Below are positions 11,512-39,261 of a DNA stretch of 64,000 nucleotides, in pieces. This stretch comes from Bdellovibrionales bacterium Ga0074137 (GTDB taxonomy: Bacteria; Bdellovibrionota; Bdellovibrionia; Bdellovibrionales; JAMPXM01). The stretch lies in contig LNDT01000013.1 of assembly GCA_001464715.1 (NCBI GenBank), forward strand, positions 19,823 through 83,822. The letters run 5' to 3'. Every line of letters begins with the position of its first letter. Positions within the stretch are counted from its first letter, which is position 1. The notes beneath the pieces were generated by a model that saw only the letters and a program-made list of their open reading frames with translations, ran no database searches and was not told the origin of the DNA. The position numbers and the translations under genes are program-made.

Positions 11512-11525
11512 GCCTCGAACGAACA

Positions 11526-11556: not shown

Positions 11557-11577
11557 CTCGATTGGTATCTATATATG

Positions 11578-11611: not shown

Positions 11612-11627
11612 CAGACGTTGCAGGCTT

Positions 11628-13769: not shown

Positions 13770-13799
13770 AGATGCTGTCCCTTTTCCAATTCTTTAATA

Positions 13800-15458: not shown

Positions 15459-17822
15459 ATGTCTAAAGAGAAAACTCCAGAAGTACCCGACAAACCGAAG
15501 TCGAAAGAGAAAACACAGCTCGATCGCGACGCTCTTGATTATCACATGCGTCCAACGCCAGGAAAAGTCGAAGTCATTTCCAGTAAAGCAGTTTCCAGCG
15601 AGCGCGCCTTGTCGCTCGCCTACTCCCCAGGAGTCGCTGCCCCTTGTTTAGAGATCGCGAAAGATCCTGAAAAAGTTTACGACTACACGACCAAGGGAAA
15701 TCTTGTCGCTGTCATTACTAACGGCACCGCAGTCCTTGGTCTTGGAGACATTGGACCACTCGCCGGAAAACCCGTTATGGAGGGTAAAGGCGTTCTTTTT
15801 AAAATGTTCGCAAACATCAACGTGTTTGATCTCGAACTTGAAACGAAGTCCGTCGACGAATTTTGTGCAGCCGTAAAAGCGCTCGAACCCACTTTCGGTG
15901 GAATTAATCTTGAAGACATCAAAGCGCCCGAGTGTTTTGAAATCGAAGAGCGCTTAAAGCGCGAAATGAAAATTCCAGTCTTTCACGACGATCAGCACGG
16001 GACCGCCATCATTACCGGCGCAGCTTTACTCAACGCCTGTGAAGTGACGAACCGAAAGATGGGCGACATTAAGCTTGTGATGAACGGCGCTGGCGCCGCT
16101 TCGATTTCTTGCGGACGCATTTTTATGGCCCTCGGTGTTCGTCCTGAAAATATCATTATGTGTGACTCAAAAGGCGTCGTCTATAAGGGCCGAAAAGACG
16201 GCATGAACAAATACAAAGAGCAGTTCGCGGTCGATACCAAAGATCGCACTTTGACCGATGCACTGAAAGGCGCCGACGTCTTCGTGGGTCTTTCTGTGGC
16301 CGGAGCAATGACCGAAGAGATGTTAAAGGTCATGGCGAAGAACCCCATCATTTTCGCGATGGCCAATCCAGATCCTGAAATTGATCCGCCGACGGCGAAA
16401 CGAATTCGTCCGGACTGCATTATTGCAACAGGCCGTTCAGACTACGCGAACCAAGTGAACAACGTTCTTGGTTTCCCGTTCATTTTCCGAGGTGCGCTGG
16501 ACGTTCGAGCGACTCAGATCAATGAAGAAATGAAACTTGCGGCGGTTCGCGCTCTTGCAAAACTCGCCAAAGAAGAAGTCCCAGAAAAAGTTTCGGCCGC
16601 TTACGGCGGGCAAAGCTTTAGCTTTGGACCTGAGTACTTGATTCCAAAACCTTTCGACCCGCGTGTGCTCTTATGGGTGACTCCGGCGGTCGCGAAAGCG
16701 GCGATGGATTCGGGCGTTGCTGGAAAACCGATCGCGGATTTTCAAGCTTACCGTGACCGTCTTGAAGCGCTTCAAGGCGCCCGCACAGGTTTTGTTCGCT
16801 CGGTCATGCACCGGGTAAAAAATCAGGCCAAATCGTCCGGCAAAGATCTTCCGATTGTCGTTTTCCCGGAAGGTGCGTCGACAAAAATTTTAAAAGCGCT
16901 TCAGACCATCGTTCACGAAGGAATTATTCGTCCGGTACTTTTGGGTTACAAAGATCAGATCGCGGAACGAATGGATATTTTGGGTTTTGACGACCTAAAG
17001 AATCTTCCGATCGTTCACCCCTCGCAGCACCCAAAATACCGCGAGTACGTCGACAAACTTTACGACATGAGAAATCGCAAAGGTGTCATGGGTCGGGAAG
17101 CAGAACGCCTCATGGCTGATCCGGATTACTTCGCATCGATGATGGTCCACATGGGCGACGCTCATGCGCTTGTCACGGGGGCCACACAGAATTACTCGGA
17201 CTGCGTAAAACCAATTTTTGAAATCATCGGCGCGGGACAACGAAAAACAGCGAGCGGCCTCAATATGGTCCTCTTTAAAAACAAGATGCTGTTTTTCGCC
17301 GACACCGCCGTCAACATCAACCCAACCGCAGAACAGATTGCGACTATTGCAATTCATGCGGCACGCGTGGCCGAGTACTTTAAAATTCAACCGCGTATCG
17401 CGATGCTTTCTTACACGAACTTCCGTTCTCGCGGCGAAAGCCCCAGCAAAATGAAGCAGGCCGCAGAGATTGTGAAAAAACGGTATCCGCACCTCATCGT
17501 CGATGGCGAAATGCAGGCCGACACAGCGGTGAACCCCGACATCGTCGAGCGAATTTTTCCTTTCTGCGAAGTGAAAAACGGCGCCAATATTCTGATTTTC
17601 CCAAATCTCGATGCGGGAAATATCAGTTATAAGTTGGTTCAGCAGCTGGGTGGCGGCGAGGTTATCGGGCCTTTCCTCATGGGAATTCAAAAGCCCGCGA
17701 ATGTGCTTCAGCGCACCTGCACGGTCGACGATATCGTGAACACGGTCGCGCTCACGGCGCTAGAGGCTCAGGCCTTCATGGAAGCAAGCTCAACGTATCC
17801 AGGCCCCGGCGAACGTAGTTAG
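15459..17822 (+). CDS. maeB: NADP-dependent malic enzyme (malic enzyme + PTA-like domain)
   Basis: 787 aa with a malic-enzyme N-terminal half ([18 protein letters not shown]) and a phosphate-acetyltransferase-like C-terminal half. Confidence 0.85.
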
Positions 17823-17835
17823 GACCCACGGTCAC
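17823..17835 (-). repeat. 13-mer copy (plus strand reads GACCCACGGTCAC)
   Basis: Exact and intergenic. It starts 1 nt after the maeB stop codon (17820-17822). Confidence 0.95.
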
Positions 17836-25045: not shown

Positions 25046-27864
25046 TCTGAGATCTTGCCCAAGGCTTCAAGCGGAGTCGAGCGATTGACATCAAAGCGCT
25101 CAATCTCTTTTAAAACTCCCTCAGCTTTTGGACTGATCGCTGGCCATGAAGGCGCGTCGAGGAGAAGCGAAAGCTGAGCACTTTGCGCAACTTTGGCAGA
25201 GCTCGTCGAAACGATGGGCTCGCGATGCACGACTCCGCTTGCAACACTTCCTTGAACGTCGCGAAGAATTCGCTCGGCCCGGTTTGTTACGGACAGCGGA
25301 AGTCCCGCAAGGCGCGCGACGTGAAGTCCGTACGACTGACCCGCCTCACCGTCCTTCAGGCGATGAAGGAATGTGATGACGCCGTCTTTTTCATGAATCG
25401 CCATGTGACAGTTCCTGATGCGATCGAAGTCTTTTTTTAGCGCCGTCAGTTCGTGATAGTGTGTTGCGAACATCGTGAGACATCGCTTTTGTTCGAGCAA
25501 ATGTTCAAGTATCGCTTGAGCAATGCTCAGACCGTCAAATGTCGAAGTTCCACGCCCGATCTCGTCAAGAACGACCAGCGTTCTTTCATTCGCGTCAGCC
25601 AAAAGCTCGGCTGTTTCTTTCATCTCAACCATGAATGTTGAAAGGCCTTCGGATAAGAAATCACTCGCACCGATGCGAGTTGCCACACGATCTAAAAGTG
25701 ATAACTCGGCTTCCCGGGCTGGAACAAAACTTCCGACCTGAGCCATGATGACAGCGATGGCCGCTTGCCTCATTAAGGTCGACTTACCCGCCATGTTCGG
25801 TCCTGTTAGAAGAAGGCACCCGCCTTCATCCATACTGATATCGTTTTCGACGAACGGTTTTGAAAGAGACTGTTCGACAACGGGATGCCGTGAACCTTTC
25901 AGTCTTAGGCCGACCGGCTGCGTGGAGCTTCGAAAACGAGGTCTTATGTAACGCTCTTCACTGGCGAGATGAGCCAAAGCCGACACGACATCAAGCTCTG
26001 CCAGACTCAAAGCAAAACGCATCAAAACTTTCGACTGACTGAGTACGAACTGAACAAGTTTTAAAAACTCTTCTTCTTCCAGCTTCAAACGCTTTTCCTG
26101 AGCCGAGATGACCTTGAGCTCGAGCTCGGAGAGTTCTTTCGTCGTGAAACGTTCGGCATTGGCCAGAGTTTGCTTTCGTTCGTAGCGATCCAACGGCACT
26201 CGTTCTTTGTGCGTATTCGTGATTTCGATCGAGTAGCCGAAGACATTGTTGTAGCGAACTTTGAGTGACGAAATACCGGTGAGTTCTTTTTCTCGGGCTT
26301 CAAGCTCCAGCACAAGACGATTTGAATTCGTCGACAATTCTATCAGCTCATCAAGCGCAGGACTTGCCCCAAGGCGAATCGCTCCGCCGTTTCGAACAAG
26401 AAGTGGCGGCTCTTCCACAATCACTCGCTCAATTTCTTTGACCACACTTGAAACTAGATCGGCTTCAGCCCTCGTAAATCCTTGCGACAAGCGCTCATCC
26501 ACAGATTGGGCCGCTTGCCAGCTGCTAAGGCCCGAAGCCAAAGATTGTGCTAGCGACAAGATGTCTCGTGGACCTCTTGATGGCTGACTGATTTTTCCCA
26601 GTCTTCTTGGAAGGTCACCGACGCCGGCCAACGCTTGCCGAAGACTTTTTCTGTTGAGATCACTTTGAACCCAAGTGCTCACCCGATCATGTCTTGCCGC
26701 GATCGCCGTCTCGTCATTGAGAGGGAACTGAAGCCATGACTTAAGAAGCCTCGCGCCCCCACTCGATTTCGTGCGGTCGATGGCTTGTAGCAAAGAACCT
26801 TGCCGCTCCCCTCGATTGGTTTCAAAGATTTCTAAATGCCGAAGTGTAGAGCCCGACAAAACCATGCGTCCTTCAAGACGTCGTTCTTCAAATGGCGTTA
26901 GAGAGTCGGCCCACACCTGCGCAGCACCACGGCCGCCGGTGGTTGAGACCGTGCTTGCATTGGAGAACTGCCCGATCGAATAAGCGAGAAGGCGACGAAC
27001 ACAGTCCGGACTGTTTTTATCGACCGTCGGCTCTATGATTTCTCCGTCAGCGGCGATCCATGAAAAATCATCTTGAGCTGTGAGAGAGGCACCCATTTTG
27101 TCGGCGAATTCTTTAATCTCGGGTCTGTCGGCATTGTCGCTGGATAAAACCCACTCAACAGCCTGAAGACTTCCCAAAAATTCTCGGCATCGATCTCGCG
27201 AAACGCCGCGGAAATAAAATCCTTCGCCCGTTGAGACGTCAAAAAATGCCAACGCTCCATCAGCGTCCCACGACGCCAAATAATTCGCGCTCGACGCATC
27301 TAAAGTTTCGTGGTCATAGACCATGCCAGGCGACAGCACGCGCGTGATCCCGCGCTTCACCAAGCCTTTAGCAAATTTCGGATCTTCCAACTGATCACAG
27401 ATCGCGACTTTGAAACCGGCGTGCAAAAGTTTATTGATGATGTTGGTGGCCGAATGATGAGGCACTCCGCACATCGGCGTTTCGTCTTGCGACTTTTTAT
27501 TGCGAGACGTGAGAGCGATGCCAAGGACGGGTGCCGCGAGTTCTGCGTCCCGGTGGAACATTTCAAAAAAATCACCCATGCGGAACAAAATAATCTTGTC
27601 CGGGTGCGCGGCCTTCACATCCCAGTACTGCTGCATTAAGGGCGTTATTCGCCCTGCGGGCGAGGGCGTTATTCGCCCTGCGGGCGAGGGCGTTATTCGC
27701 CCTGCGGGCGAGGGCGTTATTCGCCCATGAGGTGAGGACGACGAGGATTTCTGGAGACCCACGGTCACTTCGGAGCCCACTTCTGAATCAACTGCCATAC
27801 CGAATTCGATATCATCACCGGCGGGAGCTCTCCTCTCCCAATGCAGCGCAACAACACTAATCAT
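25021..27864 (-). CDS. mutS: DNA mismatch repair protein MutS (start uncertain)
   Basis: The conserved MutS core starts at ITPLMQQYW...GDFFEMF and includes the Walker A TGPNMAGKST. The track ORF runs to 27945. Candidate starts are ATG 27864 (GAAGG about 10 nt upstream), ATG 27798 and ATG 27636. Confidence 0.85.
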   Translation of the reverse strand: MISVVALHWERRAPAGDDIEFGMAVDSEVGSEVTVGLQKSSSSSPHGRITPSPAGRITPSPAGRITPSPAGRITPLMQQYWDVKAAHPDKIILFRMGDFFEMFHRDAELAAPVLGIALTSRNKKSQDETPMCGVPHHSATNIINKLLHAGFKVAICDQLEDPKFAKGLVKRGITRVLSPGMVYDHETLDASSANYLASWDADGALAFFDVSTGEGFYFRGVSRDRCREFLGSLQAVEWVLSSDNADRPEIKEFADKMGASLTAQDDFSWIAADGEIIEPTVDKNSPDCVRRLLAYSIGQFSNASTVSTTGGRGAAQVWADSLTPFEERRLEGRMVLSGSTLRHLEIFETNRGERQGSLLQAIDRTKSSGGARLLKSWLQFPLNDETAIAARHDRVSTWVQSDLNRKSLRQALAGVGDLPRRLGKISQPSRGPRDILSLAQSLASGLSSWQAAQSVDERLSQGFTRAEADLVSSVVKEIERVIVEEPPLLVRNGGAIRLGASPALDELIELSTNSNRLVLELEAREKELTGISSLKVRYNNVFGYSIEITNTHKERVPLDRYERKQTLANAERFTTKELSELELKVISAQEKRLKLEEEEFLKLVQFVLSQSKVLMRFALSLAELDVVSALAHLASEERYIRPRFRSSTQPVGLRLKGSRHPVVEQSLSKPFVENDISMDEGGCLLLTGPNMAGKSTLMRQAAIAVIMAQVGSFVPAREAELSLLDRVATRIGASDFLSEGLSTFMVEMKETAELLADANERTLVVLDEIGRGTSTFDGLSIAQAILEHLLEQKRCLTMFATHYHELTALKKDFDRIRNCHMAIHEKDGVITFLHRLKDGEAGQSYGLHVARLAGLPLSVTNRAERILRDVQGSVASGVVHREPIVSTSSAKVAQSAQLSLLLDAPSWPAISPKAEGVLKEIERFDVNRSTPLEALGKISEWTKELQS
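27640..27726 (-). repeat. perfect 24-bp tandem repeat x3.6 in the 5' region of mutS
   Basis: The plus-strand unit GGGCGTTATTCGCCCTGCGGGCGA occurs at 27640, 27664 and 27688, with a partial copy at 27712-27726, all identical. It encodes (GRITPSPA)x3 + GRITP. Each unit contains the palindrome GGGCG-TTATT-CGCCC. Confidence 0.95.
27756..27768 (-). repeat. 13-mer copy (plus strand reads GACCCACGGTCAC)
   Basis: Exact, in the mutS 5' extension. It reads V-T-V-G (GSEVTVGLQK), 30 bp from the 24-bp tandem repeat. Confidence 0.95.
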
Positions 27865-28618: not shown

Positions 28619-30874
28619 CTATTTCAGACGATCCCACAAATATCGATATTCACGAGCCGCTAGCGCCGCTTTTGACTCGAGCGTTGCGGCCCCGGCGTGC
28701 CCACCTTCGATATTTTCATAGTAAAGAACTGGGAGACCCATTTCTTTCATACGAGCGACCATACGCCTTGCATGACCTGGGTGAACACGGTCATCGCGAG
28801 TCGACGTTGTAATGAATGGCTCAGGATACTTTACTCCGGGTTTCAAATTCTGAAACGGCGAATACTTCTCAAGAAAAGTTCGCTCCGCAGGAATTTCCGG
28901 ATCTCCGTACTCACCCACCCACGAGGCACCTGCGAGAAGTTTATGAAAACGAAGCATATCTAGAAGCGGAACTTGGCAAAGAATTGCGTTAAATAAATCA
29001 GGTCGCTGAGTCATGGCGACTCCGGCCAAAAGACCACCGTTTGAGCCCCCTCTGAAACCTAAATGTGCGCTCGACGTTAAACCACTTTGAATCACGTGTT
29101 CTGCGACGGCGTAGAGATCGTCGAACGCATTCTGACGTTTTTCTTTCAAAGCAGCACGGTGCCACTTCGGTCCAAATTCGCCGCCGCCACGAATGTTCGC
29201 AACGACAAAAGCTCCGCCGCGCTCAAGCCACACTTTTCCTTGGGCTCCAAGGTAGTAAGGAACCGAGGGAATTTCAAAACCTCCGTATGCATTGATCACG
29301 GTCGGCGTCTTGCCTGACTTTCGATTTACACCTTTTGGAAGAACAAGAAAGTAAGGCACTTTCGTTCCGTCTTTACTAACAGCGTAGTGCGTTTCTACTT
29401 TCATCCCTAAAGCATTGAAACGTTTGGGACTTGATCGAAGAACTGAAAGGGTTCCCGATGCATCACCTAAATACATTTCATACGGCGTCAAAAAGTCCGA
29501 AAAGAACACTGTGAAATTGGTTTCATCGGAACTCGAAAATCCCATCGAGACGGAACCATTTCGGCTGGGGAGCTTCACGGGCTTCAATTTCCACTGGCCA
29601 ATATCAGCTTTGTTTTTTGGAGGAACTCTTTCAAGAAATGCCAACCGACCTCGGACATTGTCGAGATAAGAAATCAAAGCCCGTTCTTTTGTCGTCGAAA
29701 TTCCAGAAAATGTTTGCGTCGCTGAAGGTTCAAATACGGATTCAACCGCAATCGCCGCCGATGGATCTTTTTTCCAAATTTCAACATCGAAGGCGTAGGC
29801 TATTCCCGACTTTAAGGAATTCCCAAAAACCGTCGCGTCCTTTTTGATCGTGAAAAGCAGGAGGCCGTTCGACAGACCGACAATTTCACTTGTCAGCGGA
29901 AGTGGGATCTTCTCCCAGCTGTCATCATCTCTACGAACGTAATGCTCTCCCTCGTTGGAAGTAAGGTACCGAGATACCAAATCCACCTTCTGATCCACGG
30001 TCACCCCGTCTCGAACGTAAGTCGATCGAAGTGTGTCCGCCCAGACTCCGACGTCCGTGACCTCACCCTTAAAAATCACAGGAGTGCTCGCGAGATCCGT
30101 TCCCCGCTTCCAGAGCTTCAAAGTCATCGGATATCCGGCCTCCGTCACTGTGCCGGGTCCTGCGGGAGCGCCGACCCACAAAGTGTCATCATCGCGCCAA
30201 TCGATATTCATTTTGGCTTCAGGTAAAAAGATTCCGCCTTTGACGAAGTCTTTCGCCGCTAAGTCGAACTCGCGAACGACGATGGCATCGCCTCCTCCGC
30301 GTGAAAGATAAAGAAGGCAGCGATCCTGAATGTTCGGAGCACACTCAATACCTTTATAAACCCAAGACTCTTTTTCAGCTTTTGCAATCGCGTCGAGATC
30401 GAAAATCGTCTCCCAGACGTCGGAACCCATTTTAAATTCGGTCAGCGATTGGCTGCGATAAATTCCTTTTTGATTCTTTTCATCTTGCCAAAAATTGAAG
30501 ACGACCGCGGCTTTGCCTGAACCCCTCACTGAAATCGAAGGAATACGATCTTTGGCTTGGATAATCGTAAGTACGTCGGACTTGATATCGCGAAAAAGCT
30601 GATCTTGTCCAAGCCGAGCCTCCGACTCTTTATTTCTCGCCTCGACCCACTTCAATGCATCGACACCGTAAATATCCTCAAGCTCCAAAAAAGAATCCAA
30701 GCCCGCCACTCCCCCTGCATTACTTTTACCATCTCGACCATCCAGGCTTTCTCGCCCTTGACCCACGGTCACGCTGGGACCCGACTGGCATGATGCAAAA
30801 ACCACCAACGACACGCCGATTGAAAGTACGACGGTCGCCATCCTCTGACTCCAGAAACTAAACTGAGTTTTCAT
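28619..30874 (-). CDS. prolyl oligopeptidase family (S9A) serine peptidase, probable lipoprotein
   Basis: ATG 30874 gives MKTQFSFWSQRMATVVLSIGVSLVVFASC (lipobox). It has a beta-propeller N-terminal half and the catalytic GGSNGGLL. The track ORF extends to 30958. Confidence 0.8.
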   Translation of the reverse strand: MKTQFSFWSQRMATVVLSIGVSLVVFASCQSGPSVTVGQGRESLDGRDGKSNAGGVAGLDSFLELEDIYGVDALKWVEARNKESEARLGQDQLFRDIKSDVLTIIQAKDRIPSISVRGSGKAAVVFNFWQDEKNQKGIYRSQSLTEFKMGSDVWETIFDLDAIAKAEKESWVYKGIECAPNIQDRCLLYLSRGGGDAIVVREFDLAAKDFVKGGIFLPEAKMNIDWRDDDTLWVGAPAGPGTVTEAGYPMTLKLWKRGTDLASTPVIFKGEVTDVGVWADTLRSTYVRDGVTVDQKVDLVSRYLTSNEGEHYVRRDDDSWEKIPLPLTSEIVGLSNGLLLFTIKKDATVFGNSLKSGIAYAFDVEIWKKDPSAAIAVESVFEPSATQTFSGISTTKERALISYLDNVRGRLAFLERVPPKNKADIGQWKLKPVKLPSRNGSVSMGFSSSDETNFTVFFSDFLTPYEMYLGDASGTLSVLRSSPKRFNALGMKVETHYAVSKDGTKVPYFLVLPKGVNRKSGKTPTVINAYGGFEIPSVPYYLGAQGKVWLERGGAFVVANIRGGGEFGPKWHRAALKEKRQNAFDDLYAVAEHVIQSGLTSSAHLGFRGGSNGGLLAGVAMTQRPDLFNAILCQVPLLDMLRFHKLLAGASWVGEYGDPEIPAERTFLEKYSPFQNLKPGVKYPEPFITTSTRDDRVHPGHARRMVARMKEMGLPVLYYENIEGGHAGAATLESKAALAAREYRYLWDRLK
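29992..30004 (-). repeat. near copy of the 13-mer, 12/13 (GATCCACGGTCAC on + strand)
   Basis: Inside the S9 peptidase gene, same frame as the exact sense copies: V-T-V-D (RDGVTVDQKV). Confidence 0.8.
30760..30772 (-). repeat. 13-mer copy (plus strand reads GACCCACGGTCAC)
   Basis: Exact, in the S9 peptidase gene just after the lipobox Cys. It reads V-T-V-G (CQSGPSVTVGQGR). Confidence 0.95.
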
Positions 30875-30996: not shown

Positions 30997-32517
30997 ATGG
31001 AGCAAAATTCAAAGCCCGTAAAAGAACGAAAGCCAACAAAGTCGTTCGACTTAAAGCCTGGGGATCATATCCATTTCATGGGAATCTGCGGCACCGCAAT
31101 GGCTTCTCTGGCCGGCCTTCTTCACTCGCAAGGATATAAAATCACGGGATCTGACCAAAACGTTTATCCTCCGATGTCGACTCAACTTGAGTCTTTGGGA
31201 ATTAAGATTCTTTCTGGCTACAAACGCGAAAACCTGACACGAAATCCCGTAGGGACTCCGAACCTTGTTATCGTCGGAAACGTTATTTCTAGAAACTTCG
31301 AGGAAGCAGAAGCACTTCTCGAGAGCGATATTCCCTTCACAAGTCTTCCCCAGGCGATGGGTCAGATTGTCATCGGTCGTCGCCACTCGGTGGTCGTCGC
31401 CGGAACTCACGGCAAGACTACGACCACGGCGCTAAATTCGTATGTGGCCGAATCCCTAGGGCTCCATCCTGGATTCATGGTCGGTGGAATTCCAAAAAAC
31501 TTTGGGCAAAGTTACCGATTTGGTTCGGGCGATTGGTTCATTATCGAGGGCGACGAATACGATACGGCCTTCTTCGATAAGGTCCCAAAATTCATTCACT
31601 ATCGGCCGCGATCAGTGATTCTAAATTCGGTTGAATTTGACCACGCGGATATCTATAGGGATCTCGATCACGTTAAAGAAGCTTTTCTTATGTTGATCGA
31701 TCTGATTCCTGAGGGTGGACTTCTCATAGCTTGCGAGGATGAAGAGACAATCCGCGATCTTTTATCTCGTCGAAAAGAAAGTTTAGCGAAAAGAAATGTC
31801 AAAGTTGTAACTTTTGGTCTCACGCGCGGTGATCATCGAGCTGAGAATTTGGAAGCCGTTCCTGTCAAAGGGCTCGGTTCAAAAGAACAAGCTTTGCGCC
31901 TTGGAACACGTTTTTCCTACCGCGGTCAGAAAATCGACATCCCGATGATCGGCTCTTACAACGTAAAGAACGCTCTAGCGACGATAGCGCTATGGACGGA
32001 ACTGGGGCACCCAGCGTCCGAGATTGCTCCACGCCTTCTTGGCTTTGAAGGTGTAAAACGCCGTCAAGAAGTTCTGGGAACTCCCGGTGGCGTCACGGTG
32101 ATCGAGGATTTCGCGCACCACCCGACGGCCGTTCGAGAAACGATCCGCACTGTTCAAATGCAGTATCCGAAGTCCCACGTTTTTTCGATTTTTGAAGCGC
32201 GCTCGGCGACATCGCGCCGAAATGTTTTTCAAGACGAGTACGCAGCAGCTTTCATCGATGCAGGAACTCAAAGTCTTTTGCTGCCTCCACCCTTTAATCT
32301 TGCCGGCTTAAAAGAGGCCGATCGTTTTTCAACCGACGTACTCTTAAAACGACTGCATGATTCCAAAGTCGACGCGGTTCTTTTTGATGGAGTTGATTCC
32401 ATCGTAAAAAATGTCATCTCCCGTGCAAAACCCGGAGATGTCGTTCTCGTCATGTCCAATGGTGGCTTTGACGGAATCTATCAGAAGCTTCTGTCGAGCT
32501 TAGAAAGTGTTCGCTAA
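30997..32517 (+). CDS. mpl: UDP-N-acetylmuramate:L-alanyl-gamma-D-glutamyl-meso-DAP ligase (murein peptide ligase)
   Basis: 506 aa; HFMGICGTAMASLAGLL is the Mpl-type N-terminus. It has the Mur ligase central domain (GTHGKTTTT) and ends MSNGGFDGIYQKLL. Confidence 0.75.
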   Translation: MEQNSKPVKERKPTKSFDLKPGDHIHFMGICGTAMASLAGLLHSQGYKITGSDQNVYPPMSTQLESLGIKILSGYKRENLTRNPVGTPNLVIVGNVISRNFEEAEALLESDIPFTSLPQAMGQIVIGRRHSVVVAGTHGKTTTTALNSYVAESLGLHPGFMVGGIPKNFGQSYRFGSGDWFIIEGDEYDTAFFDKVPKFIHYRPRSVILNSVEFDHADIYRDLDHVKEAFLMLIDLIPEGGLLIACEDEETIRDLLSRRKESLAKRNVKVVTFGLTRGDHRAENLEAVPVKGLGSKEQALRLGTRFSYRGQKIDIPMIGSYNVKNALATIALWTELGHPASEIAPRLLGFEGVKRRQEVLGTPGGVTVIEDFAHHPTAVRETIRTVQMQYPKSHVFSIFEARSATSRRNVFQDEYAAAFIDAGTQSLLLPPPFNLAGLKEADRFSTDVLLKRLHDSKVDAVLFDGVDSIVKNVISRAKPGDVVLVMSNGGFDGIYQKLLSSLESVR

Positions 32518-33121
32518 AAAGTTCGACAACACGGCGCCAACTTTTTCCTTTTTGAAGAAGCTTACGGGACGGAACAAATCCTTGAGCTTCTAGCTGGTTC
32601 AAAGTGACGTAGTCTCTTACGGTTCTAAAGTGCCTTCCCCAATAAACACGCTTCGAGTAGGGACGTGCATCCCAAAATCCACGCTCCACTACGGCATCTC
32701 GGCCAGTATTCCCTCCCTTCCCTCCCTTCCCTCCCTTAACCCCCTTCCCTCGACCCACGGTCACCTTCCTTTGATCGGCGATTCTTCGGAATCCGACAGC
32801 TCTTGCGATCCCACCAGCGAGGCCCGAAATAAACCCCTTCCACTTGAGTGGCCGAGTCACTCTCAAATGAATGTGAATGTGGTTCCCAACATTGGCGAAC
32901 TTATAGATCGTAACTCCGTGACGTTCCGACATCCCGCGAATGAGCCGTTGAATCTTTGCTTCGTTCTTTAGAAGACTCATTCGGCCTCGCGCGAGCGAAC
33001 TACGCATCACCACGTGCATAGATTGGTACGACACCACGGGACGCCGTACTCGAACACTTCGGGTCGTTCGCTTTCCGGGATTAAAAACTTCAGGAGTAAG
33101 TTGGCGTTTGATTTTTTTCAT
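32450..33121 (-). CDS. HUH / Y1 tyrosine transposase-like protein (IS200/IS605 TnpA superfamily, RAYT-like), single copy
   Basis: It has HVVMRSS...IYKFANVGNHIHIHLRV (HUH motif) and RGFWDARPYSKRVY...RTVRDYVTLNQ (catalytic-Tyr Yxxx(N)(Q/P) block). A low-complexity insert lies between the two motifs and carries one 13-mer copy and a KGG x3 repeat. I saw no tnpB and no IS ends. The 3' end overlaps mpl convergently by 68 bp. The track ORF start is 33139; ATG 33121 (MKKIKRQL) is preferred. Confidence 0.6.
   Translation of the reverse strand: MKKIKRQLTPEVFNPGKRTTRSVRVRRPVVSYQSMHVVMRSSLARGRMSLLKNEAKIQRLIRGMSERHGVTIYKFANVGNHIHIHLRVTRPLKWKGFISGLAGGIARAVGFRRIADQRKVTVGRGKGVKGGKGGKGGNTGRDAVVERGFWDARPYSKRVYWGRHFRTVRDYVTLNQLEAQGFVPSRKLLQKGKSWRRVVELFSEHFLSSTEASDRFRQSHHWT
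32711..32737 (-). repeat. perfect 9-bp tandem repeat x3 (CCCTCCCTT on + strand) inside the Y1 gene
   Basis: Copies at 32711-32719, 32720-32728 and 32729-32737 are identical. They encode KGG-KGG-KGG and lie 14 nt from the 13-mer copy at 32752. Confidence 0.95.
32752..32764 (-). repeat. 13-mer copy (plus strand reads GACCCACGGTCAC)
   Basis: Exact, inside the Y1 transposase-like gene. It reads V-T-V-G (QRKVTVGRGKG). Confidence 0.95.
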
Positions 33122-33238
33122 GAGCCACACGCTCAGCAAATTCGAAACTGCGGTCCTTAGAAACGTAGCGAATCCTCACCAAAATCCGGGATCCTTAAGT
33201 CCGATTTACGAACCCTGTTGTTGGTCCGAGTCGCAGCC

Positions 33239-33251
33239 GTGACCGTGGGTC
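33239..33251 (+). repeat. 13-mer copy GTGACCGTGGGTC, array member 1
   Basis: Exact and intergenic, upstream of the Y1 gene start. Confidence 0.95.
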
Positions 33252-33271: not shown

Positions 33272-33284
33272 GTGACCGTGGGTC
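33272..33284 (+). repeat. 13-mer copy GTGACCGTGGGTC, array member 2
   Basis: Exact and intergenic, 33 bp after member 1. Confidence 0.95.
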
Positions 33285-33296: not shown

Positions 33297-33309
33297 GTGA
33301 CCGTGGGTC
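33297..33309 (+). repeat. 13-mer copy GTGACCGTGGGTC, array member 3 (extends to palindrome GTGACCGTGGGTCAC)
   Basis: Exact, 25 bp after member 2. The next two bases (AC) complete 6-bp arms around a GTG centre. It overlaps the TGA stop (33308-33310) of the hydrolase gene. Confidence 0.95.
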
Positions 33310-34495
33310 ACTGGAGGGCGGTTTTTACTAAGGTGTGCAGGGCTGGTCGGAGCTGGAGGAAGCGTGTGTTCTTTCGAGTTGGGTGGACTCGATTCGATAA
33401 AATAGTGACCAATAAGTCGGATTTTGGATCGTACCACAGCGATGTTCCGGTAAAACCTGTGTGACCGATACTCGAAAGTGAAAACTTCGGTCCACACGAT
33501 GCGCTCCCTTTCGTTGGCATCATAAAACCCAAGGCCCAGTCGCCTTTTGACCTTGAAACGGCGCGGTCCAAAAATTTTCGTCCCGATAATGGCAATTTTG
33601 ATTTCATCCCGAGGTGAAGTTTTCTCAACTCAAGTCCGTAACGGCTCAAATCTCCGATGGGGCCGAAAAGACCAGCATGAGGCGCTATCCCCTTTAGACT
33701 CGACGTATTCTCATCGTGCACTTCACTTTTTAGACCCCGCTTACGCCACGTCGAATCGAATTCGGTGGGCGCAGTTTCCGAAACGCGGTCCTTATTCCAG
33801 ATGAGACCGGGCCGAGCAGCTCCGTCTCGCTTCAAATCATTTTTTGAAAGTGCATTATAGAAAGTAGATTTAAGACCAAGTCGCTCCTGAATTCTGGCGT
33901 ACTGCTCTGGAAATCCCATGAGACTTGAGCGTCTCAAAATTTCGCCGAGTAAAAAGAAATCCAAATCCGAATAGATCGCAGAACCTCGCTGCGCCTTCGA
34001 GATTTCTCCACTCCTCGCCCGTTTCCTCACGTCCCGAACGACCAAATCAAAGAGCAGCGTCCACGCCTCTTCATGAGTTCCAGGAGATTTTAAAGATACC
34101 TGCTTGTAAAATGGCTTCCACCACGTCATTCCCGCCGAGTGGCAGAGAAGGTCTCTGATCGTCAATCGGCCAAGCGGTGACCGTGGGTCCATGAGAGAGG
34201 GGGATGGGAGGAGTTCAGGGAGCCAGTTAACGACGGGGTCTTTTAAGGAGAGGTGACCTTCGTCGACTTCGATCATGGTGCTTGAGACTGACATCACGAT
34301 TTTTGTCAGCGAGGCCCAATCATAGATCTCCGACGTTTCACCGCAAGCGACGTCGATTCGAAGTTTTCCGCTCTCCCACGCCTGCAGTCGAAATCCCGGG
34401 GCTGCATCTTGCCACTGTGATCCATCTTTTGGATGAGTCCAATTGTCCAAAAGATTCAGAAACGACTTTTCGACCGGTCGAGCTCGACGTGACAT
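33308..34495 (-). CDS. beta-lactamase-family serine hydrolase (AmpH / DD-peptidase-like)
   Basis: 395 aa with the S-x-x-K motif (DWASLTKIV) and a class C / PBP4*-like fold. Its start overlaps the ldcA stop. Confidence 0.7.
   Translation of the reverse strand: MSRRARPVEKSFLNLLDNWTHPKDGSQWQDAAPGFRLQAWESGKLRIDVACGETSEIYDWASLTKIVMSVSSTMIEVDEGHLSLKDPVVNWLPELLPSPSLMDPRSPLGRLTIRDLLCHSAGMTWWKPFYKQVSLKSPGTHEEAWTLLFDLVVRDVRKRARSGEISKAQRGSAIYSDLDFFLLGEILRRSSLMGFPEQYARIQERLGLKSTFYNALSKNDLKRDGAARPGLIWNKDRVSETAPTEFDSTWRKRGLKSEVHDENTSSLKGIAPHAGLFGPIGDLSRYGLELRKLHLGMKSKLPLSGRKFLDRAVSRSKGDWALGFMMPTKGSASCGPKFSLSSIGHTGFTGTSLWYDPKSDLLVTILSNRVHPTRKNTRFLQLRPALHTLVKTALQ
34177..34189 (+). repeat. 13-mer copy GTGACCGTGGGTC
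   Basis: Exact, inside the AmpH-like hydrolase gene. The coding strand reads GAC CCA CGG TCA C = D-P-R-S (LMDPRSPLG). Confidence 0.95.
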
Positions 34496-35511
34496 TAGCG
34501 CACCGACTTCAGAGAAATTTCTTTTGGAAAAGAGACCGCTGTTTCTATTTCAATGGAGCTTGACCGAAGATCAATAACCGCTTCGGTGCCGATCGGAAAA
34601 ACGCGCTGACTGACACCGTGACCGCTGGCGATACCGCTCAAAACGGTAACGCCATTTTTCTGCGCCCAATCTTGAGCAAATCTTTCGATCACTGCGGAAA
34701 CTTTCGAGGACCCATCGGGCTCAAGCCCACCCAGAAATTCTCCAAAGACAATAGCCTTCGTTCGCCGCGACAAAACACCACTTTGAACAAGTTGTTCAAG
34801 CACGCGATCCACCCGGTAGCCACGCTCACCAAGCTCTTCAAAAAACACAATCTGACCCACGGTCACAGGATGAAGTGCCGTTCCAATCGCCGACGCGAAG
34901 GTCACCAAATTCCCACCCATCGTTCGCCCACGAAGGCGTTTCTCTTTCGGCACTCGAACTTTATTGAGCGATCTCAAACCCTCGTACAAAACTGTCGAAG
35001 TCTCACCGAATACAATTCGTCTCAGCTCTTCAACCTGAGCGTCGATAGGACGCGGCTTCAGATCACTCACAAGATTTGAATCGATACACCGACCGAGTCG
35101 GTCAAGAAGCGGCGCCTGAAGGCTTGGCCATTTCCAGGTTTGTGAAAGCCAAAGCTGGATGGTTGTCACATCACTAAAGCCCAATAGAATTTTTGAGTGC
35201 TTTGGTCTTTTCAATTTCATGAGCTGAGGCACAAGCCGAATAGATCCATAGCCGCCGCGAAGGCACCAGATCGCTTTTGAATCCTTCGCCAAAAGCGCAT
35301 TGGCCAAATGCTTCAGTCTTTTCTCATCGACATGACTTGCGATGACGTCCGCTCCAAAAAGATCTTTCGGAAGTCTCGCCTTAAGCCCCCAAGATTCAAG
35401 AAACTGAACCCCGGCTTCGACTTCAGCATCCGTCGGACGAAATCCGGGCGCAATCACATCGACAATATCGCCAGCTTTTAGAGCCGACCAACTTGCGTAT
35501 TTAGAGACCAC
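34495..35511 (-). CDS. ldcA: muramoyltetrapeptide LD-carboxypeptidase (peptidase S66)
   Basis: 338 aa with GDIVDVIAPG, the Ser nucleophile in GFSDVTT, FFEELGERGYRVDRVLEQL and the His in ASGHG. Confidence 0.75.
   Translation of the reverse strand: MVSKYASWSALKAGDIVDVIAPGFRPTDAEVEAGVQFLESWGLKARLPKDLFGADVIASHVDEKRLKHLANALLAKDSKAIWCLRGGYGSIRLVPQLMKLKRPKHSKILLGFSDVTTIQLWLSQTWKWPSLQAPLLDRLGRCIDSNLVSDLKPRPIDAQVEELRRIVFGETSTVLYEGLRSLNKVRVPKEKRLRGRTMGGNLVTFASAIGTALHPVTVGQIVFFEELGERGYRVDRVLEQLVQSGVLSRRTKAIVFGEFLGGLEPDGSSKVSAVIERFAQDWAQKNGVTVLSGIASGHGVSQRVFPIGTEAVIDLRSSSIEIETAVSFPKEISLKSVR
34854..34866 (-). repeat. 13-mer copy (plus strand reads GACCCACGGTCAC)
   Basis: Exact, inside ldcA. It reads V-T-V-G (LHPVTVGQIVFF). 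It is the only copy right of 33.2 kb in this orientation. Confidence 0.95.
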
Positions 35512-36931: not shown

Positions 36932-39261
36932 TACTGTCTTTCAAATGAGAGATTTTTAAAGGCGCTGGACCATCCCGAGTCGTAGTCCATTTTCAATTCT
37001 AAAAGATTCACATCCAAAGTTCCTTCCGGATCGGTGTCCGAAGAAGATCCGGACTCGATTACAAAACGGTGACCGTGGGTCGTTCCAATCAAGTGAAGTG
37101 ACCGTGGGTCGCCGCCGTGAGAGGCGAACCGATTGCGAAGAGCTTCTAAGCTTTCAGTGCTTGAGATCAGGACTTCGTAGGAGACTTCACAAAACAAAGA
37201 TTCAGCAAAGCTCATCTTAGCCAGATCGGGCCTCGCAGCCTGGGTCGCTGAGCGACTGAGGCGAACGCCGATATTCTTTGAGATCGCCATTCGCGCCAAC
37301 GCGTAGCCAAGACCGAACTTACCAACCACACGAGTTGCCGAAATCGTATTCTCTGTAGCCGGAGAATGAGGCCCAACACCTTCGGTGAGCTTTCGGAGCG
37401 AAGTGACGAGGGCAGCGATTTCTTTTCCGTTCAGCGTCCCGAAAGCTCGAGGCCCTGTACTTTCCGGGCCCGTGACTTCTCCCATCGCGCCGCTGGTCCA
37501 GAGTTGTGGAAGCCGCAGCAAAAATACGTTTTCGCCTTCATGTACGAAATCGCTTTTTGGAAGTGAAGTGACCGTGGGTCGTAGGCCGACGACGCCAGTT
37601 GAAGGCGTTGGTGTGATCCCGCGACCTTCGGTTTCGTTATAAAAGCTGACGTTACCGCTGATGATCGGAGCCACTAGGCTTTCACAAATTTCGTTGAGGC
37701 CAGAAAGAGCTGCGACAAAAGAGCTCATCACCGGAACTCTTTCCGGATTTCCGAAATTCAAACAGTCCGTAACGGCCAGTGGCTCAAAACCTTTTGCCGC
37801 AAGCTCAAGGGCTGGAAATGCAACAGCATCAAGCCCCCCTTCTCTCGCATCAAGTCTCATCATTTGAGGCCGACACCCTAAAACAATTCCTAATCCCCGC
37901 CCAGAGTCCTTCAAGCGAATGACACCGACGGATTCGTGGCAATCGGCCGCCGTGGATGCTCCAACGTGACCGTCATATTGCCGAAAAATAAATTCCCGCG
38001 AACATCCTTGTGGAGATGAAAGTGCTGTCCTCAGCGAGGCACGAATATCTGCAGCACTTTCGCCAGCGATATCGGCGACACTAGCCACCCGGTTCGACGG
38101 CGTCCACGGTTCGAATGGTCGTTCGTACATCGGTGCATGCTCTGTCAAAAGCTCGGGATCGATCTCCGTAAGAAGATCTCCCTTCCAAAAAAGCTTCATC
38201 GTTTTTTTCGCTGTGACTTCGCCGATAGCGACGGCTTCAAGTCCCCAACGTTTAAACAATGCTTCCACATTAGAAAGTTTCGCTGGCTCCACAACCATCA
38301 ACATTCGCTCTTGGCTTTCGCTCAGGAGAATGTCCTCGGGTTGAAGCGTAGACTCGCGCAAAGGAACGCGGTCCAAATGTAGGTTGAAGCCGACGCCACC
38401 CTTGGATGCCATTTCAAAAGAAGATGAAGTAAGTCCTGCGGCGCCCATATCTTGTATCGCCACGACGAGATCTTGCTCCATCACTTCAAGACACGCCTCG
38501 ATCAAAAGCTTCTCAAAAAACGGATCTCCGATCTGAATTGTCGGACGTTTTTTTTCGGAGTCCTTTCCAAAACTTTCCGAAGCCATGCTCGCTCCGTGAA
38601 CGCCATCACGTCCCGTCTTGGCTCCTGCGTACACCACAAGATTTCCGACACCTTTGGCTTTCGACAAAAAGACTTTCTCGCCTTTTCTAAAAAGACCGAC
38701 GGCCATTGCATTCACGAGAACGTTTTTGTCATAGCTAGGATCGAATTCAGTCTGTCCTGTGATTGTCGGAACCCCGACCGGGTTACCATAACCACCGATA
38801 CCGCGAACAACTCCATCAACAATCTTTTCCATTCGTTCGGCCTGGGGACGTCCGAAACAAAGATAGTCTGCGACGGCGATCGGTCGCGCGCCCATCGTGA
38901 AAATATCGCGCAGGATACCACCGACACCCGTCGTGGCTCCTTGATAGGGCTCAATAAAACTTGGATGATTGTGGCTTTCGATTTTAAAGGCCACACGCTC
39001 GCCATCGCCAAGATCAACGACGCCGGCATTTTCGCCAAAGCTCTGAAGCACGCGCTCAGATTTATTGAATAGACCTTTTAAATGAACTCGCGAACTTTTG
39101 TACGAGCAGTGTTCGCTCCACATGGCCGAGAAAAGCGCCCACTCGACGCCCTGAGGCTCTCGCCCCAAAAGTCCGGCGATACGGCGATGCTCCGACTCAT
39201 TTAATCGGTAATGTTTTAGTTTTTCTTGGAGTTCTTTGTTGTCGCGCTGATCTTGCCCCAT
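36928..39261 (-). CDS. purL: phosphoribosylformylglycinamidine synthase subunit PurL (FGAM synthase II)
   Basis: Duplicated AIRS-type domains ([20 protein letters not shown]). ATG 39261 lies 6 nt after the purQ stop. The track ORF extends to 39315. Confidence 0.9.
37069..37081 (+). repeat. 13-mer copy GTGACCGTGGGTC
   Basis: Exact, at the purL 3' end. The coding strand reads G ACC CAC GGT CAC = T-H-G-H (IGTTHGHRF). Confidence 0.95.
37098..37110 (+). repeat. 13-mer copy GTGACCGTGGGTC
   Basis: Exact, in purL. It reads D-P-R-S (GGDPRSLHL) and sits in the 21-nt block AAGTGAAGTGACCGTGGGTCG (37091-37111). Confidence 0.95.
37568..37580 (+). repeat. 13-mer copy GTGACCGTGGGTC
   Basis: Exact, in purL. 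It reads GA CCC ACG GTC AC = P-T-V-T (LRPTVTSLP). The identical 21-nt block occurs at 37561-37581. Confidence 0.95.

What the first reader, a model, noticed from the sequence alone, without database searches (positions are those of the whole stretch)
32450..33139. Single-copy HUH/Y1 transposase-like gene without IS context, carrying its own internal copy of the 13-mer
The ORF has the two hallmark blocks of IS200/IS605 TnpA and REP-associated tyrosine transposases. The HUH block is NHIHIHLRV. The Tyr block is RGFWDARPYSKRVY...RDYVTLNQ. There is no tnpB, no recognisable IS ends and no second copy in the window. RAYTs look like this: domesticated, single-copy, and flanked by their cognate repeats.

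Two things are unusual. The candidate cognate repeat is only 13 nt and is spread into coding sequence over 20 kb. Also, the segment between the HUH and Tyr blocks (ADQRKVTVGRGKGVKGGKGGKGGNTGRDAVVE) looks like an insertion that itself contains a 13-mer copy and a 9-bp x3 tandem repeat.

The gene sits between mpl and the AmpH-like/ldcA genes, interrupting a murein-recycling neighbourhood. Its 3' end overlaps mpl convergently by 68 bp.
Basis: partly seen in the sequence, partly recalled or inferred. Interest (0 to 1): 0.75.

Follow-up and report, generated by a model that had tools for sequence, protein, structure and literature searches.

The report
Domesticated Y1 nuclease with polar 13-mers
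A single-copy, transposase-derived (HUH/Y1) gene in an uncultured Bdellovibrio relative sits at the centre of about 20 kb of exact copies of a 13-base motif. The copies point away from the gene on both sides, many lie inside neighbouring genes, and they are kept unchanged between species, so this is a REP/RAYT-like system in an unusual local form.

Summary
ORF 32450-33121(-) encodes a 223-aa HUH/Y1 protein. HUH, Tyr171 and Asn175 are invariant in 23 relatives. The predicted fold matches IS608 TnpA and E. coli RAYT. The Pfam score falls just below its cut-off.

The 13-mer GTGACCGTGGGTC occurs 14 times (0.06 expected), all between 17823 and 37580, with unrelated flanks. Copies on the two sides of the gene's 5' part point in opposite directions.

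The gene-motif link recurs:
- Orthologous loci in three relatives keep the coding-region copies exact, although only 0.9% of 13-nt windows are identical in the three genomes compared.
- Two paralogues in unrelated neighbourhoods have their own polar clusters.
- Relatives lacking the gene at either backbone have no copies, and there mpl abuts the beta-lactamase-like gene.
- In less derived relatives a single copy overlaps the promoter or the start codon.

My reading is a vertically inherited Y1 gene with a cognate mini-hairpin site, arranged like a REPtron. It is not a canonical RAYT/REP:
- the tyrosine motif is Y----Q;
- the site is 13 nt with no GTAG foot;
- the copies are local, mostly intragenic and under selection;
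- several copies replaced same-length sequence and were not inserted.

What the outlying copies do is unknown. I rate this a new variant of a known kind.

The parts
32450..33121 (-). Y1/HUH gene of 223 aa, starting at ATG 33121. The longest ORF starts at TTG 33139.
   Evidence: The fold matches Y1 transposases. It is the only copy in the window.
32873..32884 (-). HUH motif, codons N80-H81-I82-H83.
   Evidence: Invariant in 23 relatives. Aligned to the HIH of IS608 TnpA.
32609..32611 (-). Codon of the putative catalytic Tyr171, in the motif DYVTLNQ.
   Evidence: Invariant. Aligned with IS608 Y127.
32752..32764 (-). Internal 13-mer copy, sense strand, encoding VTVG between the HUH and Tyr blocks.
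   Evidence: Conserved as (V/M)TVG in P0001-P0009. Exact in L003, L007, L015, L122 and L123.
32709..32751 (.). 9-bp tandem repeat (TTCCCTCCC on the + strand) encoding the Gly/Lys loop. It is hypervariable between species.
32450..32517 (.). 68-bp convergent overlap of the Y1 3' end with the mpl 3' end. The Y1 tail is read antisense to the conserved mpl C-terminus.
33239..33251 (+). 13-mer copy, 118 nt upstream of the Y1 ATG, on the strand antisense to the gene.
33272..33284 (+). 13-mer copy in the Y1 upstream region.
33297..33309 (+). 13-mer copy in the Y1 upstream region. It overlaps the stop codon of the beta-lactamase-like gene.
34177..34189 (+). 13-mer inside the beta-lactamase-like gene, antisense, read as DPRS.
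   Evidence: Exact in L003 and L007. The outgroup L015 has unrelated sequence here.
34854..34866 (-). 13-mer inside ldcA, sense, read as VTVG. It is the only copy with the wrong polarity, and it is conserved.
37069..37081 (+). 13-mer inside purL, antisense, read as THGH.
37098..37110 (+). 13-mer inside purL, antisense, read as DPRS.
37568..37580 (+). 13-mer inside purL, antisense, read as PTV.
30760..30772 (-). 13-mer in the N-terminal linker of the S9 peptidase gene, sense, read as VTVG.
29992..30004 (-). One-mismatch copy GTGACCGTGGATC in the S9 peptidase gene, read as VTVD. L003 has the same variant at the same place.
27756..27768 (-). 13-mer between the rhomboid and mutS genes. It is inside the longest mutS ORF but intergenic in L003.
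23161..23173 (-). 13-mer inside the glnD-like gene, sense, read as VTVG. L003 has a 2-mismatch version.
17823..17835 (-). Outermost 13-mer. It starts at the first base after the end of ORF 15459-17822.

Best explanation
The gene encodes a catalytically intact single-tyrosine HUH enzyme of a Bdellovibrionota-specific branch of the TnpA-Y1 superfamily. It no longer behaves as an insertion sequence. It is inherited vertically at a fixed chromosomal position together with its recognition site, the 13-mer RTGACCGTGGGTC.

**Recognition.** By analogy with IS608 TnpA and TnpA-REP, the protein most likely recognises the site on one strand as a small hairpin (GACC-NNN-GGTC) with a 2-nt asymmetric extension. 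This would explain why orientation matters.

**Ancestral arrangement.** The ancestral module has one copy over the -10, transcription start or start codon of the gene, which would allow self-regulation. In the closer clade a second, opposite-strand copy lies inside the ORF between the HUH and Tyr blocks.

**Spread.** In several lineages, including the window's, further exact copies have accumulated up to 15 kb away. They always take the orientation set by the side of the gene on which they lie, as in a REPtron (REP and inverted REP flanking tnpA). Here most copies lie inside neighbouring genes and are held by purifying selection.

**Shown here**
- fold and catalytic residues;
- the gene-motif association in independent contexts, and its absence in Y1-less alleles;
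- polarity;
- conservation;
- the site over the promoter or start codon.

**Inferred**
- that the protein binds or cleaves the 13-mer as single-stranded DNA;
- self-regulation;
- that the enzyme's preference for acting near its own gene explains the local spread.

**Unknown**
- what the outlying copies do.
For: **Enzyme**
- N80/H81/H83/Y171/N175 are invariant.
- The family profile matches IS608 TnpA at E=6e-4 with the catalytic Tyr aligned.
- Foldseek top hits are IS608, RAYT 4er8 (TM 0.48/0.63, rmsd 2.7), ISDra2 and IS200.
- Pfam Y1_Tnp matches 22 of 23 members.

**Motif**
- 14 copies against 0.06 expected.
- The distribution is all-or-none, with excess only at 0-1 mismatches.
- The flanks are unrelated.

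**Gene-motif link**
- Orthologous clusters occur in L003 and L007.
- Independent clusters surround paralogues P0006 and P0005 in other neighbourhoods, and L123 has extra copies of its own.
- L125 and L126, which have no Y1 between mpl and the beta-lactamase-like gene, carry no copies with up to 1 mismatch. The window's Y1-less allele of the L009 locus also carries none at the positions of the L009 copies.

**Polarity**
- 29 of 31 derived copies follow the rule, P=2e-7.
- Polarity is not tied to GC skew or to the sense of the host gene.

**Selection**
- 0.9% of 13-nt windows are identical in three genomes, yet 6 of 6 coding copies are, P about 5e-13.

**Promoter or start-codon copy**
-.

**Precedents in the literature**
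- The REPtron arrangement and REP copies inside tnpA between HuH and Y (PMC6006769).
- Small 5-bp-stem REPs concentrated near tnpA in Marinomonas (PMC8266576).
Against: - No binding or cleavage data exist for this family.
- The hairpin is weak (-1.8 to -2.2 kcal/mol, z -1.4 to -1.9).
- The protein alone is below Pfam's and NCBIfam's cut-offs.
- A whole-genome census of the motif was not possible. 'Local only' rests on 64 kb here, where no copy lies outside the 19.8-kb span, and on about 300 kb of a multi-copy relative.
- Several coding copies replaced same-length sequence relative to the outgroup L015. A REP-like paste-in mechanism does not predict this.
- One conserved copy (34854) breaks the polarity rule.
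- Nothing explains why selection keeps the distant copies exact.
Confidence: 0.6

Rival explanations
1. Canonical RAYT/REP system. On this view a class-2 TnpA-REP has REPs that are dispersed genome-wide, and the window merely shows the REPtron end of the distribution.
For: - The gene is single-copy and vertically inherited, and is flanked by oppositely oriented repeats.
- JGI names relatives 'REP element-mobilizing transposase RayT'.
- 4er8 gives the best structural superposition.
Against: - The Tyr motif is Y-x-x-x-N-Q, not the class-2 signature Y---NP (PMC6006769 Table 1).
- The family profile finds IS608 and ISDra2 TnpA in the PDB but not 4er8.
- The repeat is 13 nt with a 4-bp stem and no GT[AG]G foot.
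- Nine or ten of the 14 copies lie in ORFs.
- No copy lies in the other 44 kb of the window.
- About 300 kb around 16 paralogues in MAG JADJOF01 shows almost only the promoter copies.
Confidence: 0.12
2. The polar array is a working cis-element for a directional, strand-specific process that starts at the gene. One example is nicking at the central copies followed by outward strand displacement, with the outlying same-orientation copies acting as termination and rejoining points, as in rolling-circle replication. Another is a Chi-like or Ter-like polar barrier.
For: - The orientation is mirror-symmetric about a switch point at 32764-33239 in every cluster.
- Copy density falls with distance from the gene.
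- Purifying selection acts on the distant copies.
- Same-orientation pairs recur at 25-37 nt spacing.
- From established knowledge, HUH enzymes initiate and terminate rolling-circle processes at identical sites.
Against: - No helicase or polymerase partner is conserved next to the gene, and the neighbours differ in each context.
- Cutting between direct copies would delete essential genes such as purL and purF.
- Close relatives manage with two copies (L015, L122).
- The idea rests on geometry alone.
Confidence: 0.15
3. The protein is now only a double-stranded-DNA-binding repressor, and the extra copies act as auxiliary operators or a local reservoir.
For: - One copy overlaps the -10, transcription start or start codon in most relatives.
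- Three copies lie in the window's upstream region.
Against: - The catalytic HUH, Tyr and Asn residues are invariant across the family, which argues for retained chemistry.
- A reservoir of duplex sites should not need strict polarity.
- From established knowledge, Y1 enzymes characterised so far bind single-stranded hairpins.
Confidence: 0.08
4. An active or recently active IS200/IS605-type insertion sequence.
For: - The sequence and fold are related to IS608 TnpA.
- One MAG has at least 16 paralogues.
Against: - The gene is single-copy here.
- It occupies the same position in relatives down to about 50% identity.
- There is no tnpB.
- The flanking sites lie on opposite strands, whereas IS200/IS605 left and right ends lie on one strand.
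- Even the multi-copy paralogues are only 66-92% identical and have no conserved downstream end.
- The 3' end is fused into mpl.
Confidence: 0.03

Closest known systems
REPtrons: TnpA-REP/RAYT with flanking REP and inverted REP (E. coli YafM; Marinomonas MWYL1 REPtron Mb). Sources: PMC3333891, PMC8266576, PMC6006769.
   Same: - A single-copy, vertically inherited Y1 gene.
- Cognate hairpin repeats flank it in opposite orientation.
- In Marinomonas the REPs are small (5-bp stem) and concentrated near tnpA.
- In subclass 2.4 a repeat sits in frame inside tnpA between HuH and Y.
   Different: - The Tyr motif is Y----Q, not Y---NP.
- The site is 13 nt with no GTAG foot.
- Most copies lie inside neighbouring genes.
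- The copies sit at orthologous positions and are exactly conserved between genomes that are 75-79% identical.
- Several copies arose without any change in length.
- Strict polarity extends to 15 kb.
- There is no sign of genome-wide dispersal.
TnpA-Y1 class 3 (Quentin et al. 2018, PMC6006769).
   Same: - A Y----Q tyrosine motif.
- An NH[V/I]H HuH motif.
- Extended N-terminal conservation.
- Genes flanked by atypical weak hairpins in a REPtron-like arrangement.
- The class is rare.
   Different: - Class 3 hairpins have a CnGA foot and can reach about 600 copies per genome.
- Class 3 is reported from Planctomycetes, Acidobacteria and Proteobacteria.
- Membership could not be tested because no class 3 profile or sequences were available.
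IS200/IS605 TnpA (IS608, ISDra2).
   Same: - These are the best sequence-level relatives with solved structures.
- They share the same fold and catalytic layout.
- A hairpin site lies at the 5' end of tnpA.
   Different: - There are no left and right ends on one strand.
- There is no tnpB.
- The gene is not multi-copy.
- The Tyr motif is one residue longer (YxxxNQ against Y[IV]ENQ).
- There are extra N- and C-terminal segments.

Membership tests
HUH/Y1 (TnpA-Y1) superfamily | HUH metal-binding motif on a beta strand | tested here: met
   N80-H81-I82-H83 is invariant in 23 relatives. It aligns to the HIH of IS608.
HUH/Y1 (TnpA-Y1) superfamily | Single catalytic Tyr on the C-terminal helix | tested here: met
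   Y171 is invariant. It aligns with IS608 Y127 and lies in helix 163-180 of the model.
HUH/Y1 (TnpA-Y1) superfamily | Y1 transposase fold | tested here: met
   All 30 top Foldseek PDB hits are Y1 transposases or RAYT, with probability 1.00. The core has pLDDT of 90 or more.
HUH/Y1 (TnpA-Y1) superfamily | Pfam PF01797 gathering score | tested here: inconclusive
   This protein scores 21.3 bits against a cut-off of 23. 22 of 23 relatives match at E below 0.01, the best at 4e-8.
IS200/IS605 insertion sequence | Several near-identical copies per genome | tested here: not met
   There is one copy in 64 kb. The position is orthologous in five other assemblies.
IS200/IS605 insertion sequence | Subterminal left-end and right-end hairpins on the same strand | tested here: not met
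   Copies on the two sides lie on opposite strands. Multi-copy relatives have no conserved 3' end.
IS200/IS605 insertion sequence | Tyr motif Y[IV]ENQ and HuH motif DH[VI]H (subclass 1.1, PMC6006769) | tested here: not met
   The motifs here are YVTLNQ and NHIH.
RAYT / TnpA-REP (class 2) with REPs | Single-copy gene with housekeeping-like vertical inheritance | tested here: met
   Synteny is kept in L003, L007, L015 and L123.
RAYT / TnpA-REP (class 2) with REPs | Gene flanked by cognate repeats in opposite orientation (REPtron) | tested here: met
   29 of 31 derived copies follow the rule.
RAYT / TnpA-REP (class 2) with REPs | Tyr motif Y---NP | tested here: not met
   The motif is Y171-V-T-L-N-Q; the N is kept but Q replaces P.
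RAYT / TnpA-REP (class 2) with REPs | REP: an imperfect palindrome of 20-40 nt with a 5' GT[AG]G foot | tested here: not met
   Only 13 nt are conserved, and the flanks are unrelated. The stem is 4 bp with a 3-nt loop. The window copies have no GTAG.
RAYT / TnpA-REP (class 2) with REPs | Repeats extragenic and dispersed genome-wide at high copy number | tested here: not met
   Nine or ten of the 14 copies lie in ORFs. None lies in the remaining 44 kb. A whole-genome count was not possible.
RAYT / TnpA-REP (class 2) with REPs | Tyr-dependent cleavage and joining of single-stranded repeats | not testable with these tools
   This needs biochemistry.
TnpA-Y1 class 3 (PMC6006769) | Y----Q motif, NHVH-type HuH and extended conserved N-terminus | tested here: met
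   Y171...Q176 and NHIH are present. The N-terminal block PGxRTTxxxRxxRP is conserved.
TnpA-Y1 class 3 (PMC6006769) | Flanking hairpins with a CnGA foot, high copy number possible | tested here: not met
   There is no conserved CnGA next to the 13-mer, and the copies are local.
TnpA-Y1 class 3 (PMC6006769) | Match to the class 3 profile | not testable with these tools
   The profile and sequences are not held, and the supplements contain no usable list.

The most novel reading that the evidence does not exclude
The Y1 enzyme, acting preferentially near its own gene, writes exact copies of its 13-nt site into neighbouring DNA by a length-neutral short-patch replacement. The orientation of each copy is dictated by the side of the gene on which it lies. 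The resulting polar array is then functionally required, for example as start and stop points for a strand-specific process emanating from the gene. This would be a new way for a transposase-derived enzyme to shape a chromosomal neighbourhood, distinct from REP/REPIN transposition.
Probability: 0.18. Interest if true: 0.85.

Novelty: new variant of a known kind. Interest (0 to 1): 0.62.

Why it matters
What RAYT-type domesticated Y1 enzymes do for their hosts, and how their repeats spread, is still unresolved (PMC8266576).

This system reduces the problem to a 13-nt site and a 223-aa enzyme. It also offers natural controls:
- alleles with and without the gene on two backbones;
- relatives with 1, 2, 5, 9 or 14 sites.

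The sites inside essential genes are kept exact between species and obey a strict polarity. This argues that they are used, not merely tolerated, and it gives concrete substrates for biochemistry.

It also shows that short DNA motifs can constrain protein sequence in neighbouring genes (VTVG, DPRS and THGH patches).

Tried and rejected
- **Replication origin, terminus, KOPS or Chi-type explanation.** GC skew is uniformly negative across the window. Gene orientation shows no bias against skew in 60 loci, 29 positive against 31 negative. The same geometry is seen on both skew signs. Rejected.\n- **Polarity tied to host-gene transcription.** Copies are sense in some genes and antisense in others. 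Rejected.\n- **Metagenome scan for tandem 12-mer pairs**. It returned 27 loci with GC of 36-71%. Most are periodic tandem repeats, none has a Y1 gene, and none is related to the window backbone except by chance. Uninformative.\n- **De novo k-mer search for other polar clusters in 80 family loci**. It found only an unrelated IS in L027 and GC-rich tandem repeats in L046.\n- **Distant clades (33-40% identity).** They have their own conserved promoter elements (ACCATTGCCCC or TTGACATCGCT), once per gene and without clusters.\n- **2-mismatch copy at 8732,** considered as a relic of a lost paralogue. About 1.4 such hits are expected by chance, so it was not pursued.\n- **PADLOC defence models.** No hit.\n- **Rfam on 31.5-34.5 kb.** Nothing found.\n- **Sigma-70 consensus scan upstream of the gene.** Nothing found.\n- **Class 3 sequences in the supplements of PMC6006769.** Not found.
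Full report
**1. What is there**

The ORF 32450..33139(-) is real. Gene callers use the ATG at 33121. The resulting 223-aa protein (P0001) occurs with exactly this sequence in a JGI metagenome and in an activated-carbon metagenome.

- The NHIHIH and RDYVTLNQ blocks are present.
- The Gly/Lys-rich loop between them is present.
- An exact 13-mer lies at 32752-32764.
- A 9-bp tandem repeat at 32709-32751 abuts it (TRF 4.8 copies).
- The 68-bp convergent overlap with mpl is real.
- There is no second copy in the window.

**2. What the protein is**

On its own the protein is just under the curated cut-offs: Pfam Y1_Tnp 21.3 bits against 23, and NCBIfam IS200 16 bits against 55. The family evidence is clear.
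- In an alignment of 23 relatives, N80, H81, H83, Y171, N175 and E178 are invariant.
- 22 of the 23 match Y1_Tnp, the best at 4e-8.
- A profile of the family finds IS608 TnpA among solved structures (E=6e-4), with HIH on HIH and Y171 on the catalytic Y127.
- An AlphaFold model has mean pLDDT 74.8. The core is at 90 or more, and the loop 121-143 and both termini are disordered.
- Foldseek against the PDB returns only Y1 transposases at the top: IS608, ISDra2, IS200, a Sulfolobus TnpA and the E. coli RAYT 4er8. The RAYT gives the best superposition (TM 0.48/0.63, rmsd 2.7 Å).

The family is distinct and moderately sized.
- It has 1,796 representatives at E of 1e-3 or better among 1.84 billion.
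- It has 480 loci in GTDB species representatives.
- The 80 loci that were returned are nearly all titled Bdellovibrionota or Oligoflexia MAGs.
- The window's own species is not among those representatives. The best match is 51% identical.

**3. The 13-mer**

- GTGACCGTGGGTC occurs 13 times exactly and once with one mismatch, against 0.06 expected.
- The excess is confined to copies with 0 or 1 mismatch. At 2-3 mismatches the counts are about what chance gives.
- Nothing outside the 13 nt is conserved.
- All copies lie between 17823 and 37580 (P about 2e-6 for uniform placement).
- Nine or ten copies are inside ORFs: purL three times, ldcA, the beta-lactamase-like gene, Y1 itself, the S9 peptidase twice, glnD-like, and possibly the mutS leader.
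- Sense copies all read VTVG or VTVD. Antisense copies read DPRS, THGH or PTV.
- As single-stranded DNA the motif forms only a 4-bp, 3-nt-loop hairpin with a 2-nt tail (-1.8 to -2.2 kcal/mol).
- Orientation is not random. Every copy left of 32764 is on the - strand. Every copy right of 33239 is on the + strand, except the one in ldcA at 34854.
- Drawn with the gene left to right, upstream copies carry the motif on the antisense strand. Internal and downstream copies carry it on the sense strand.

**4. Comparative evidence**

*(a) Orthologous loci.*
- L003 (Y1 76% identical) and L007 (72%) have the same order: purine genes, ldcA, bla-like, Y1, mpl. They carry the 13-mers at the same places.
- Overall nucleotide identity to the window is 79% and 75%.
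- Only 0.9% of 13-nt windows are identical in all three genomes, yet all six coding-region copies in the shared region are (P about 5e-13).
- The three intergenic upstream copies are less well kept.

*(b) Independent neighbourhoods.*
- P0006 (L008, next to the mraZ/ftsI and HGPRT genes) and P0005 (L009, between an acyltransferase and an SH3 gene) each sit in a cluster of 8-9 copies of RTGACCGTGGGTC with the same geometry.
- L123, another orthologue of the window locus, has extra copies of its own just downstream.

*(c) Natural controls.*
- L009 is syntenic with window 3233-16373. There the window has neither the gene nor the copies.
- L125 has the same purine-ldcA-bla-mpl-S9 backbone (mpl 76% identical). 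In L125 mpl lies 22 nt from the bla-like gene, there is no Y1, and there is not one copy with up to 2 mismatches in 16.7 kb.
- L126 has an unrelated ORF at the junction and no copies.

*(d) Outgroup.*
- L015 is fully syntenic and has the orthologous Y1 (51% identical), but only two copies: one containing the start codon (GACCCACGGTCATG) and the internal one.
- At the positions of the window's purL and ldcA copies, L015 has unrelated sequence of the same length. At the bla-like position the sequence is also unrelated, though indels lie in the flanks.
- Those copies therefore arose without insertion.
- In contrast, extra copies in the ldcA N-terminus of L003 and L007 lie in insertions.

*(e) Less related clades.*
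- Relatives of 42-49% identity have a single copy. It overlaps the -10, transcription start or start codon, downstream of a TTGACC -35 box.
- One MAG (JADJOF01) has at least 16 such paralogues, 66-92% identical. The shared unit runs from the -35 box to the stop codon, with no conserved 3' end.
- Relatives of 33-40% identity lack the 13-mer. They have other conserved promoter elements, once per gene.

*(f) Polarity counts.* Leaving out the ancestral promoter and internal copies, 29 of 31 derived copies in four independent expansions obey the polarity rule (P=2e-7).

*(g) What polarity is not tied to.*
- The rule does not follow replication. GC skew is uniform across the window.
- Across 60 family loci, gene orientation is unbiased relative to skew (29 against 31).
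- The rule does not follow the sense of the host genes.

**5. How it most likely works**

*Shown:*
- The enzyme is catalytically intact and of the Y1 type.
- Its gene and the 13-mer travel together and are absent together.
- One copy sits on the gene's own promoter or start codon.
- The copies are polar about the 5' part of the gene.
- The coding copies are under purifying selection as DNA.

*Inferred from what is established for IS608 TnpA and TnpA-REP:*
- Those enzymes bind one strand of a hairpin, and the complementary inverted REP is inactive (PMC8266576). By analogy this protein reads the 13-mer as a single-stranded mini-hairpin with an asymmetric tail, which would make orientation meaningful.
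- The promoter or start-codon copy would then give self-regulation.
- The enzyme's action near its own gene would account for local accumulation.

*Open:*
- The function of the outlying copies is not known.
- The geometry is what a strand-specific process moving outward from, or inward to, the gene would see as uniform orientation. A rolling-circle-like start and stop scheme, or a polar barrier, therefore cannot be excluded.
- Recurrent same-orientation pairs at 25-37 nt spacing could reflect binding by a dimer.

I put 0.6 on the cognate-site, REPtron-like reading and about 0.15-0.2 on an active directional role.

**6. Comparison with what is known**

The arrangement works like a REPtron: a single-copy Y1 gene flanked by oppositely oriented cognate hairpins (PMC3333891, PMC6006769). 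Two further precedents exist:
- small REPs concentrated around tnpA in Marinomonas (PMC8266576);
- REP copies in frame inside tnpA between HuH and Y in subclass 2.4 (PMC6006769).

Membership of class 2 RAYTs fails on three features that were tested:
- the Y---NP motif;
- the 20-40-nt REP with a GT[AG]G foot;
- the extragenic, dispersed distribution.

The motif pattern (NHIH, Y----Q, extended N-terminus) is closest to the rare class 3 of Quentin et al. That class has CnGA-footed hairpins at up to hundreds of copies, and its profile was not available for testing. The locus is also not an IS200/IS605 element: there are no left and right ends on one strand, no tnpB, a single copy and a fixed position.

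**7. Verdict**

It is wrong in family detail.
- The unusual points are the strict polarity over 20 kb, the intragenic copies held exact between species, their length-neutral origin, and the recurrence of local expansions around paralogues in different places.
- I rate this a new variant of a known kind, with interest 0.62.

Noticed in passing
L017-L044 (MAG JADJOF01, Bdellovibrionales): At least 16 paralogues of this Y1 family occur in one genome, 66-92% identical in protein. The shared unit runs from a TTGACC -35 box through one GACCC[AT]CGGTCAC site to the stop codon. There is no conserved downstream end and no orientation bias against GC skew. This is a gene-family expansion that looks neither like an IS burst nor like a single-copy RAYT.
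   Followed up: partly
L015 9909-9922; L011 9990-10003; L008 about 6832-6847; L122 7144-7157: The start codon ATG of the Y1 gene is the last three bases of a site copy (GACCCACGGTCATG), directly after a -10-like TAGAC. This suggests a leaderless or near-leaderless mRNA whose start is occluded by the site. In the window the ATG-proximal copy has degenerated (GAGCGTGTGGCTCATG), and three intact copies lie 118-176 nt upstream.
   Followed up: partly
window 32450-32517; L003 6046-6113; L007 10653-10720: The last 22 codons of Y1 are read antisense to the conserved C-terminus of mpl. The overlap is absent in the orthologue L015, so the tail looks like a recent overprinting extension shared by three species.
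   Followed up: partly
L003 3005-3110; L007 7580-7700: The ldcA gene has an N-terminal extension of 31-40 aa that the window lacks. It contains one or two site copies read as STHGHR (SSTHGHRSSRSTHGHR in L003). Here sites were gained together with inserted or duplicated sequence, unlike the purL copies.
   Followed up: partly
window 23161, 27756, 29992, 30760, 32752, 34854: All six sense-strand copies inside ORFs use the same reading frame (VTVG or VTVD), although a second open frame (xDRGS) exists. The sample is too small for a firm conclusion.
   Followed up: no
window 7429-15167 compared with L009: This stretch is the Y1-less allele of the locus that carries paralogue P0005 in a related genome. 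The two insertion points (about 8.78 kb and 33 kb in window coordinates) are only about 24 kb apart on the same backbone. A 2-mismatch copy (GTGACCGTGGTTT, 8732+) lies at the empty junction and may be chance.
   Followed up: partly
L008 and L125 (both from run SRR12532592): A contig with an empty mpl/bla junction and a contig with the P0006 cluster in a different neighbourhood come from the same sample. If they belong to one organism, the module has relocated. This was not verifiable here.
   Followed up: no
L046-L094 upstream regions: Distant family clades carry other conserved elements between the -35 and -10 boxes, once per gene: ACCATTGCCCC in 15 of 32 loci and TTGACATCGCT(AC) in about 8. 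These may be clade-specific operators.
   Followed up: partly
L027 14360-17900: Two copies of an unrelated transposase-like gene are bounded by repeated TACCGTTCC motifs in opposite orientation. This is an ordinary IS and is not connected with the Y1 family.
   Followed up: partly
L095-L121 (metagenome scan): The 12-mer TGACCGTGGGTC also occurs as part of periodic tandem repeats (periods of about 16-33 nt) in unrelated organisms with GC of 36-71%. No Y1 gene was detected in the stretches fetched.
   Followed up: partly
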